DNA of 64,000 nucleotides from Escherichia coli. GTDB taxonomy: Bacteria; Pseudomonadota; Gammaproteobacteria; Enterobacterales; Enterobacteriaceae. A model generated the notes under the pieces. It had not been told where the DNA came from. It searched no databases and was given only the letters and a program-made list of their open reading frames with translations. This document shows, piece by piece, positions 61,410-61,514 of this stretch (position 1 is the first letter of the stretch; each line of letters begins with the position of its first letter). The position numbers and the translations under genes are program-made. The DNA lies in the NCBI RefSeq assembly GCF_029227855.1, contig NZ_CP074356.1; one strand, given 5' to 3'.

Positions 61410-61455
61410 GAGTAAAAATGACTCGCTACCCGCAGCAGGCGAGTCATTTTTACTC
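61410..61455. promoter_or_regulatory. Perfect 17 bp inverted repeat in the zraS-zraP intergenic region; candidate ZraR enhancer site
   Basis: gagtaaaaatgactcgc - 12 nt - gcgagtcatttttactc read directly; ZraR is known to bind an inverted repeat between zraP and zraS. Confidence 0.65.
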
Positions 61456-61497
61456 GTTTATCATGCCAGATTACCCGTCATATCAGCGTTTCATCGT

Positions 61498-61514
61498 TGG
61501 CACGGAAGATGCAA
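61498..61514 (+). promoter_or_regulatory. Sigma54 (-24/-12) promoter of zraP
   Basis: tggcacggaagatgcaa fits TGGCAC-N5-TTGCA with GG and GC correctly spaced; about 35 nt upstream of the zraP start. Confidence 0.7.

What the first reader, a model, noticed from the sequence alone, without database searches (positions are those of the whole stretch)
61410..61514. ZraR enhancer palindrome and sigma54 promoter of zraP
A perfect 17 bp inverted repeat (gagtaaaaatgactcgc / gcgagtcatttttactc, 12 nt spacer) lies about 45-90 nt upstream of a good -24/-12 element (tggcac-N5-tgcaa) that precedes zraP. This is the classic enhancer-plus-sigma54 architecture. Because zraS carries an amber codon in this strain, the module is an interesting test case for cross-talk or constitutive signalling.
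Basis: partly seen in the sequence, partly recalled or inferred. Interest (0 to 1): 0.3.

Follow-up and report, generated by a model that had tools for sequence, protein, structure and literature searches.

The report
Known ZraR enhancer between divergent promoters
This is the already characterised E. coli control region where the activator ZraR binds a palindrome midway between two back-to-back sigma-54 promoters (zraP and zraSR); it is identical to the laboratory strain's, so it is ordinary apart from a strain-private stop codon in the sensor gene zraS.

Summary
A perfect 17-bp inverted repeat (61410-61426 / 61439-61455, 12-nt spacer) is the longest short-spacer palindrome in the window, and no shuffle produced one. 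TGGCACGGAAGATGCA (61498-61513) lies 25 nt-plus-promoter upstream of zraP.

The whole 237-bp intergenic region is base-for-base identical to E. coli K-12. There, published ChIP-exo places the strongest ZraR peak at the equivalent of 61419-61451, and sigma-54 ChIP-seq reports exactly this promoter.

The palindrome is therefore a shared bidirectional enhancer.

Comparison across Escherichia and Citrobacter shows the functional units are two 15-bp sites, GRGT-N7-ACYC. Each has its own dyad. Their centres are always 31 bp apart, about three helical turns, and the spacer sequence between them is free. An 11-bp indel keeps the zraP promoter in helical phase.

The zraS amber is real (CAG to TAG, codon 223). 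It is the only difference from the nearest zraS allele and was found in none of about 4,000 complete E. coli genomes. Its effect on signalling cannot be computed.

Verdict: already known; low interest.

The parts
61410..61424 (.). ZraR site 1, GAGTAAAAATGACTC. It is a 15-bp quasi-dyad (GAGTnA-N3-TnACTC) centred at 61417.
   Evidence: Ten of 15 positions are self-complementary. The consensus across 11 Escherichia/Citrobacter loci is GRGTAAAAAYGACYC. Three of the five Citrobacter loci carry the mirror-symmetric double change GGGT...ACCC. The pattern GRGTNANNNTNACYC occurs only at the two sites in the window, against 0.14 expected.
61425..61440 (.). 16-nt inter-site spacer. Its sequence is free and its length is fixed.
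   Evidence: The sequence varies within E. coli and in Citrobacter, but the centre-to-centre distance of the two sites is 31 bp in all 11 loci.
61441..61455 (.). ZraR site 2, GAGTCATTTTTACTC. It is the exact reverse complement of site 1, centred at 61448.
   Evidence: Twelve of its 15 columns are invariant (60-156 in alignment A1). K-12 ChIP-exo peak_9 (signal/noise 73) spans 61419-61451 and so covers the inner halves of both sites.
61497..61513 (+). PzraP sigma-54 promoter, TTGGCACGGAAGATGCA. GG is at 61499-61500 and GC at 61511-61512. The inferred start site is about 61524, 25 nt before the zraP ATG.
   Evidence: Identical to sigma-54 ChIP-seq motif OS38 (PSSM 12.3, distance 25). The same core is sigma-54-bound and sigma-54-dependent in Salmonella LT2. 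Conserved in all 11 loci. No sigma-70-like promoter lies in 61250-62100.
61343..61359 (-). PzraS sigma-54 promoter, ATGGCATGATTTCTGCT on the minus strand. GG is at 61357-61356 and GC at 61345-61344. The inferred start site is about 61332, 21 nt before the zraS ATG.
   Evidence: Identical to sigma-54 ChIP-seq motif OS39 (PSSM 11.4, distance 21). Found by pattern search. It is the most conserved block of the alignment. The Salmonella hydH promoter is TGGCATGATCTCTGCTTA.
61376..61397 (.). Conserved block CCCTG-N(about 8)-ACACAAA between PzraS and site 1. Its role is unknown.
   Evidence: ACACAA is invariant and CC.G is invariant in the Escherichia/Citrobacter alignment. It matches neither the ZraR site nor the IHF consensus by inspection.
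61549..61980 (+). zraP, 143 aa, periplasmic accessory protein and chaperone. It is the main target of the enhancer.
   Evidence: Pfam Metal_resist, 6e-23. RefSeq annotation of identical DNA.
59935..61311 (-). zraS sensor kinase gene, interrupted by an amber codon (TAG, 60645-60643) at codon 223. This corresponds to K-12 Gln230 in the TM2-DHp linker.
   Evidence: The N-terminal fragment holds the sensor (weak sCache hit). The in-frame ORF from ATG 60627 holds HisKA plus HATPase_c. The linker motif RSRQ is Arg227-Gln230 in K-12 numbering. The amber is the only difference from strain 120899 across zraS. No exact 61-mer match in 4,057 genomes.
58613..59938 (-). zraR, 441 aa, intact. It encodes the enhancer-binding protein that reads the two sites.
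   Evidence: Pfam Response_reg, Sigma54_activat, AAA_lid_14 and HTH_8. PDB 1OJL 'ZraR' at 5.6e-177.

Best explanation
The palindrome is the upstream activating sequence (enhancer) of the ZraPSR envelope-stress and zinc-responsive system.

Anatomy (shown): it consists of two 15-bp dyad sites (GAGT-N7-ACTC) in mirror orientation, with centres 31 bp apart. It lies midway between two divergent sigma-54 promoters. For PzraP the site centres are at about -76 and -107. For PzraS they are at about -85 and -116.

Mechanism (inferred from family knowledge): each site binds a dimer of the Fis-type HTH domains of phosphorylated ZraR, and the 31-bp spacing puts both dimers on one face of the helix. The bound dimers nucleate the AAA+ ring. 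DNA looping brings the ring to the sigma-54 holoenzyme, which already sits in a closed complex at either promoter. ATP hydrolysis then opens the promoter.

Output: one arm makes ZraP, the periplasmic feedback inhibitor and chaperone. The other makes ZraS and ZraR, giving positive autoregulation.

Status in this strain: the cis-elements and zraR are intact, but the cognate kinase is cut by an amber codon between its membrane sensor and its kinase core. The most likely state is a circuit that zinc cannot induce. This last step is inferred and untested.
For: Sequence identity: the 237-bp intergenic region equals K-12 exactly.

ZraR binding: ChIP-exo peak_9 maps to 61419-61451. gSELEX gives a single high-affinity ZraR target in this spacer, with 81 of 86 clones.

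Sigma-54 binding at both promoters: ChIP-seq motifs OS38 and OS39 are identical to the window sequences, and holoenzyme gSELEX gives a peak in this spacer.

Dependence: a zraR deletion lowers zraP by 12.7 and zraS by 3.2 log2 units under zinc. The Salmonella orthologues are sigma-54-dependent, 16-fold and 3.7-fold.

Phylogenetic footprint: the sites, their 31-bp spacing and both promoters are conserved while the spacer sequence drifts. An 11-bp indel preserves helical phase, with site 2 to the zraP start at 76 versus 87. The LT2 promoters lie 11 bp further apart than here.

Other support: ZraR is intact with REC, AAA+ and HTH_8 domains. There is no sigma-70-like promoter. The palindrome is far beyond chance.
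Against: The original footprinting paper (Leonhartsberger et al. 2001, J Mol Biol 307:93) could not be read. Its description of two inverted repeats bound by HydG is my recollection only.

A Salmonella review lists the ZraR enhancer sequence as 'NK', not known.

The one-dimer-per-15-mer stoichiometry and the looping are inferred from the NtrC family, not shown for ZraR here.

A second ChIP-exo peak at 61539-61564, over the zraP ribosome-binding site and ATG, is not explained by the two sites.

The start sites are inferred from motif geometry.

Nothing was measured in this strain.
Confidence: 0.93

Rival explanations
1. The palindrome acts as a transcribed hairpin, either an RNA structure or an intrinsic terminator or attenuator, rather than as a protein-binding enhancer.
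For: If transcribed it would fold into a 21-bp stem of -29.6 kcal/mol, z = -7.
Against: It lies upstream of both inferred start sites and between divergent genes, so neither promoter transcribes it. No T-run follows it and the terminator scan found nothing. The only Rfam hit is a sub-threshold plant miRNA hairpin, E = 0.3. Conservation follows protein-site logic, with the stem-proximal GC pairs and loop free and the 15-mers fixed, rather than compensatory stem changes along the whole stem.
Confidence: 0.02
2. The palindrome is mainly the operator of a different regulator, such as another envelope-stress or metal regulator, and ZraR acts from elsewhere in the spacer.
For: zraP responds to conditions and mutations outside ZraSR, including baeR deletion, ethanol, phosphate starvation and nitrogen limitation. 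An unexplained conserved block exists at 61376-61397.
Against: The strongest ZraR ChIP-exo peak is centred on the palindrome, at 61419-61451. gSELEX with purified ZraR selects this spacer almost exclusively. No other repeated or dyad element in the spacer is conserved.
Confidence: 0.03
3. In this strain the module is a decaying remnant. The amber in zraS, through loss of the kinase and polarity on zraR, has silenced the circuit, so the intact enhancer is simply too young to have degraded.
For: The amber is a single C-to-T change and the only difference from the nearest zraS allele. It is absent from about 4,000 genomes, so it is recent. The zraS stop and zraR start overlap (59935-59938), so translational coupling is lost for about 700 nt.
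Against: This concerns activity in this strain, not what the element is, and so is compatible with the best explanation. The TAG could be a sequencing error. It could be read as Gln by a supE-type suppressor, since the original codon was CAG. ZraR can be activated by acetyl phosphate in vitro.
Confidence: 0.5

Closest known systems
E. coli K-12 zraP-zraSR (hydHG) intergenic regulatory region (Leonhartsberger et al. 2001; Bonocora et al. 2015; Choudhary et al. 2020; Shimada et al. 2021)
   Same: All 237 bp between the two start codons are identical. The two sigma-54 motifs are the same. The ZraR ChIP-exo peak falls on the palindrome.
   Different: There is no difference in the cis-elements. This strain's zraS has an amber at the codon equivalent to K-12 Gln230. 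Its periplasmic domain is 7 aa shorter and mosaic relative to K-12. ZraP has two extra residues in its Gly/Met tail.
Salmonella Typhimurium LT2 zraP / hydHG divergent sigma-54 promoters (Samuels et al. 2013)
   Same: The -24/-12 cores are the same (TGGCACGGAAGATGCA; TGGCATGAT-TCTGCT). Both are bound by the sigma-54 holoenzyme and are sigma-54-dependent.
   Different: The promoters lie 11 bp further apart, with 168 versus 157 between the 18-mer starts. This matches the one-turn insertion seen in Citrobacter. The LT2 enhancer sequence itself was not examined here.
NtrC enhancer of glnAp2
   Same: It works the same way. Two strong dyad sites about three helical turns apart lie more than 70 bp upstream of a -24/-12 promoter. 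They are read by a REC-AAA+-Fis-HTH response regulator that oligomerises on DNA and loops to the closed complex. This comparison rests on my own knowledge of the family.
   Different: The recognition sequence differs (TGCACC-N5-GGTGCA type). The glnAp2 enhancer serves one promoter, whereas this one is placed symmetrically between two.
NorR sites at norR-norVW
   Same: The half-site geometry GT-N7-AC is contained in the ZraR site GAGT-N7-ACTC. Both lie in a divergent intergenic region next to the activator gene and have a single main target.
   Different: NorR needs three sites (title of PMC2831303) and only norVW is sigma-54-dependent. Here there are two sites and both flanking promoters are sigma-54-dependent. 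No third site was found (and inspection).

Membership tests
Sigma-54 (-24/-12) promoter | GG and GC doublets exactly 10 bp apart within TGGCAC-N5-TTGCW, placed just upstream of the gene | tested here: met
   PzraP is TGGCACGGAAGATGCA at 61498-61513. PzraS is TGGCATGATTTCTGCT at 61358-61343. The inferred 5'UTRs of 25 and 21 nt equal the published distances.
Sigma-54 (-24/-12) promoter | Occupancy by the sigma-54 holoenzyme and dependence on rpoN | not testable with these tools
   Not measurable for this strain. For the identical K-12 sequence, ChIP-seq sites OS38 and OS39 and a holoenzyme gSELEX peak are published. rpoN dependence is shown in Salmonella.
Sigma-54 (-24/-12) promoter | No competing sigma-70 promoter is needed to explain expression | tested here: met
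   No sigma-70-like sites in 61250-62100 on either strand.
bEBP upstream activating sequence (NtrC-type enhancer) | Tandem dyad-symmetric sites spaced by an integral number of helical turns, about 70-150 bp upstream of the promoter | tested here: met
   Two 15-mers with internal dyads have centres 31 bp apart in all 11 loci. They lie at -76/-107 from PzraP and -85/-116 from PzraS. An 11-bp indel preserves phase.
bEBP upstream activating sequence (NtrC-type enhancer) | Bound by the cognate enhancer-binding protein | tested here: met
   Published K-12 ZraR ChIP-exo peak coordinates were mapped here onto identical sequence and give 61419-61451. gSELEX confirms the spacer as the main target. The binding itself was not measured by me.
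bEBP upstream activating sequence (NtrC-type enhancer) | Cognate bEBP with a sigma-54 interaction AAA+ domain and a C-terminal HTH is encoded and intact | tested here: met
   ZraR is 441 aa with Response_reg, Sigma54_activat and HTH_8 domains. PDB 1OJL matches at 5.6e-177.
bEBP upstream activating sequence (NtrC-type enhancer) | Mutating or moving the sites abolishes activation | not testable with these tools
   This needs reporter fusions.
Functional ZraPSR two-component system | Full-length sensor kinase ZraS with sensor, TM helices, DHp and CA on one polypeptide | tested here: not met
   An in-frame TAG at codon 223 separates the sensor and TM part (222 aa) from HisKA plus HATPase_c.
Functional ZraPSR two-component system | Divergent zraP / zraSR gene order with intact zraP and zraR | tested here: met

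The most novel reading that the evidence does not exclude
The amber falls exactly in the short linker between TM2 and the DHp helix (K-12 Gln230). An in-frame ATG (K-12 Met236) lies 15 nt downstream, ahead of a complete HisKA plus HATPase_c core. If ribosomes restart there, the strain would make a soluble kinase core cut off from the zinc/ZraP-sensing periplasmic domain. The isolated ZraS cytoplasmic domain is catalytically active in vitro. Such a core could drive the intact enhancer and its positive-feedback arm constitutively. That would be a natural 'split sensor' that turns an inducible sigma-54 circuit into a locked-on one.
Probability: 0.06. Interest if true: 0.35.

Novelty: already known. 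Interest (0 to 1): 0.1.

Why it matters
It matters little for discovery. The element is the textbook-style ZraR enhancer with its two sigma-54 promoters, in a copy identical to the one studied in K-12.

There are three minor gains:
1. A precise, comparative definition of the ZraR site: two GRGT-N7-ACYC dyads, 31 bp centre to centre, with conserved helical phasing. A 2016 Salmonella review still listed the site as unknown.
2. A reminder that the enhancer is bidirectional. This matters to people who use PzraP as a zinc biosensor part.
3. A natural, very recent zraS nonsense allele that could serve as a ready-made kinase-null or split-kinase background, if the strain is available.

Tried and rejected
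- The original footprinting paper (PMID 11243806) is not held. Four further literature searches found no open paper quoting its site coordinates, so I used the ChIP-exo supplementary coordinates instead.
- Third ZraR site: windows one, two and three helical turns outside sites 1 and 2 show no resemblance. The site pattern occurs only twice in 64 kb. Rejected.
- IHF sites: TATCAGCGCTTAC (61364-61376) fits WATCAR-N4-TTR, and TATCAGCGTTTCA (61481-61493) misses by one. Each lies about 37 bp upstream of its start site. Neither is conserved in E. albertii or Citrobacter. Left as a weak lead.
- The second copy of ATCATGCCA (61460-61468) looked like a spare -24 element on the minus strand. It has no -12 partner and is not conserved. 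Rejected.
- Terminator, structured RNA and sigma-70 promoter readings are rejected.
- The loose sigma-54 consensus alone does not beat chance, so I did not rely on it.
- The first related-loci run failed on an off-by-one zraP start.
- The genome scan returned only Escherichia and Citrobacter plus three distant deltaproteobacterial ZraP-like hits (L013-L015), which I did not examine.

Full report
**Locus.** The right end of the window carries purD, zraR (58613-59938, minus), zraS (59935-61311, minus), zraP (61549-61980, plus), yjaH, hupA, yjaG and nfi. This order and annotation match E. coli genomes. Over 25 kb the window is 99.9% identical to its best match among 5,426 complete E. coli genomes. 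It is therefore an E. coli strain that is not itself in that set.

**Checking the observation.** The inverted repeat is exactly as described. GAGTAAAAATGACTCGC lies at 61410-61426 and GCGAGTCATTTTTACTC at 61439-61455, 17/17 complementary with a 12-nt spacer. It is the only inverted repeat in the window with arms of 14 nt or more and a spacer of 30 nt or less. None of 200 Markov shuffles produced a 17-nt one.

The -24/-12 element TGGCACGGAAGATGCA is at 61498-61513. One mismatch to the loose consensus is not unusual, with 3 hits against 1.99 expected. The tighter pattern TGGCAYG-N5-TGCW gives 3 hits against 0.16 expected.

The zraS amber is real. The minus strand reads CGC TCG CGC TAG CTT CTA CAA GAT GAA ATG.

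One of the other two tight-pattern hits is TGGCATGATTTCTGCT on the minus strand at 61358-61343, 21 nt-plus-promoter upstream of the zraS ATG. The intergenic region therefore holds two divergent sigma-54 promoters with the palindrome between them. The scan found no sigma-70-like promoter and no terminator.

**Link to experiments.** The 237 bp between the two start codons (61312-61548) are identical to K-12 MG1655, so published K-12 data apply directly.
- Sigma-54 ChIP-seq lists TTGGCACGGAAGATGCA (zraP, distance 25) and ATGGCATGATTTCTGCT (zraS, distance 21) as bound sites (PMC4591121). Both sequences and both distances match the window.
- Sigma-54 holoenzyme gSELEX also gives a peak in this spacer (PMC8743547).
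- Purified ZraR selects this spacer as its single high-affinity genomic target, with 81 of 86 clones (PMC8249747).
- ZraR ChIP-exo gives its strongest peak (signal/noise 73) at NC_000913.3 4201786-4201818 (PMC7657598, supplementary file 2). I mapped this to window 61419-61451, sequence TGACTCGCTACCCGCAGCAGGCGAGTCATTTTT, which is symmetric inside the palindrome.
- In a zraR deletion under zinc, zraP falls 12.7 and zraS 3.2 log2 units.
- In Salmonella LT2 the orthologous promoters are bound by the sigma-54 holoenzyme. Their transcripts are sigma-54-dependent, 16-fold and 3.7-fold (PMC3844500).

**Anatomy from comparison.** A scan of one genome per species with ZraP returned five Escherichia loci and five Citrobacter loci. 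Aligned with the window (A1; metrics), the spacer resolves into islands of conservation:
- the PzraS -24/-12 element;
- a CCCTG...ACACAAA block (61376-61397);
- site 1, GRGTAAAAAYGACYC (61410-61424);
- site 2, GRGTCATTTTTACTC (61441-61455);
- the PzraP -24/-12 element;
- the zraP leader and Shine-Dalgarno sequence.

One E. coli locus (L004) already breaks the 17-nt arm. The functional units are therefore two 15-mers.

Each 15-mer is itself a quasi-dyad, GAGTnA-N3-TnACTC, with 10 of 15 positions self-complementary. In three Citrobacter loci site 1 reads GGGT...ACCC, a change at mirror positions. This is what is expected of a site read by a symmetric dimer.

The centre-to-centre distance is 31 bp in all 11 loci, although the intervening 16 nt vary freely. 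Site 2 lies 76 bp from the inferred zraP start in Escherichia and 87 bp in Citrobacter. The 11-bp indel equals one helical turn. Site 1 to the zraS start is 85 versus 84 bp. The LT2 promoters are likewise 11 bp further apart than here.

Within E. coli, the 66-mer 61400-61465 is exact in 4,353 of 5,419 genomes and 95-99% identical in the rest.

**Mechanism.**
- *Shown:* ZraR and sigma-54 occupy these sequences, and both operons depend on ZraR.
- *Inferred from the NtrC family, with the local ZraR carrying REC, sigma-54 AAA+ and Fis-type HTH_8 domains and matching PDB 1OJL:* a ZraR dimer binds each 15-mer on the same helical face. Phosphorylation drives assembly of the AAA+ ring. Looping delivers the ring to the closed complex at either promoter, and ATP hydrolysis opens it.

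One arm yields ZraP and the other yields ZraS and ZraR. The element is therefore a shared bidirectional enhancer inside a feedback loop. The core geometry GT-N7-AC is the same as that listed for NorR.

**The amber codon.** TAG replaces CAG at zraS codon 223. This corresponds to K-12 Gln230 in the RSRQ motif of the TM2-DHp linker.

It is the only difference from the closest allele across the whole of zraS (strain 120899). A 61-nt probe centred on it has no exact match in 4,057 genomes. It is therefore private and recent, or an error.

The upstream fragment (222 aa) keeps the sensor and both TM helices. An in-frame ATG 15 nt downstream opens a 230-aa ORF with complete HisKA and HATPase_c domains. 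The isolated cytoplasmic domain of ZraS is enzymatically active in vitro (PMC12314577).

Possible outcomes for the strain:
- no kinase, with polarity on zraR, whose start overlaps the zraS stop;
- a restart product;
- read-through by a Gln-inserting suppressor.

These tools cannot decide among them. I rate a non-inducible circuit as most likely.

**Rivals.** A transcribed hairpin would be stable (-29.6 kcal/mol). However, it lies upstream of both start sites, has no T-run and has no Rfam match above noise. Its conservation pattern is that of protein sites. A different regulator as the main ligand is contradicted by the ChIP-exo and gSELEX data.

**Limits.**
- I could not read Leonhartsberger et al. 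2001. My memory that it footprinted HydG on two inverted repeats in this spacer is only a recollection.
- Start sites are inferred from motif geometry.
- ChIP-exo coordinates may be off by one.
- The second ChIP-exo peak at 61539-61564 and the ACACAAA block remain unexplained.

**Verdict.** The system is already known, and interest is low.

Noticed in passing
window 61376-61397: The block CCCTG-N(about 8)-ACACAAA between PzraS and ZraR site 1 is conserved from Escherichia to Citrobacter, while the flanking spacer drifts. It matches neither the ZraR site nor IHF. It may be a site for an additional factor acting on PzraS.
   Followed up: partly
window 61539-61564: A second published ZraR ChIP-exo peak (peak_8, signal/noise 34) maps onto the zraP Shine-Dalgarno sequence and start codon, downstream of the inferred start site. 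No ZraR-like site is present there. It may reflect cross-linking through the looped complex.
   Followed up: partly
window 61418-61546 (+): A 42-aa ORF begins inside ZraR site 1 and runs across PzraP. PGAP annotates it as 'hypothetical protein' WP_001297563.1 in some E. coli genomes. It has no Pfam match and lies upstream of the zraP start site, so it is almost certainly a spurious call.
   Followed up: partly
window 61364-61376 and 61481-61493: Direct repeats TATCAGCG(C/T)TT resemble the IHF core WATCAR-N4-TTR, one exactly and one with a single mismatch. Each lies about 37 bp upstream of one of the two start sites. They are conserved in E. coli but not in E. albertii or Citrobacter.
   Followed up: partly
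window 61456-61496 versus Citrobacter loci L008-L012: An 11-bp length difference lies between ZraR site 2 and PzraP. The LT2 promoters are also 11 bp further apart. This is one helical turn, so face-of-helix phasing is kept.
   Followed up: yes
window 60731-61019: The periplasmic-domain part of zraS is too diverged from K-12 for a continuous BLAST alignment, and K-12 ZraS is 7 aa longer (465 versus 458). The 3' half of zraR and the end of purD also carry dense SNPs relative to the nearest strain. This suggests a recombination mosaic.
   Followed up: no
window 61912-61917: A 6-nt (GGAATG) indel in the Gly/Met-rich C-terminal tail of ZraP distinguishes this strain (143 aa) from K-12 and O157:H7 (141 aa).
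   Followed up: no
window 16975-16990 (+): TGGCATGTCTGGTGCA is a full match to the tight sigma-54 pattern and lies inside the malF-like ORF (16056-17615). It does not appear in the main-text tables of the sigma-54 ChIP-seq paper. malF and malG were among the genes lower in the zraR deletion under zinc.
   Followed up: partly
L013-L015: ZraP-like proteins (27-33% identity) are encoded in Deltaproteobacteria and Desulfobulbaceae metagenome bins. Their neighbourhoods were not inspected for ZraSR-like or sigma-54 elements.
   Followed up: no
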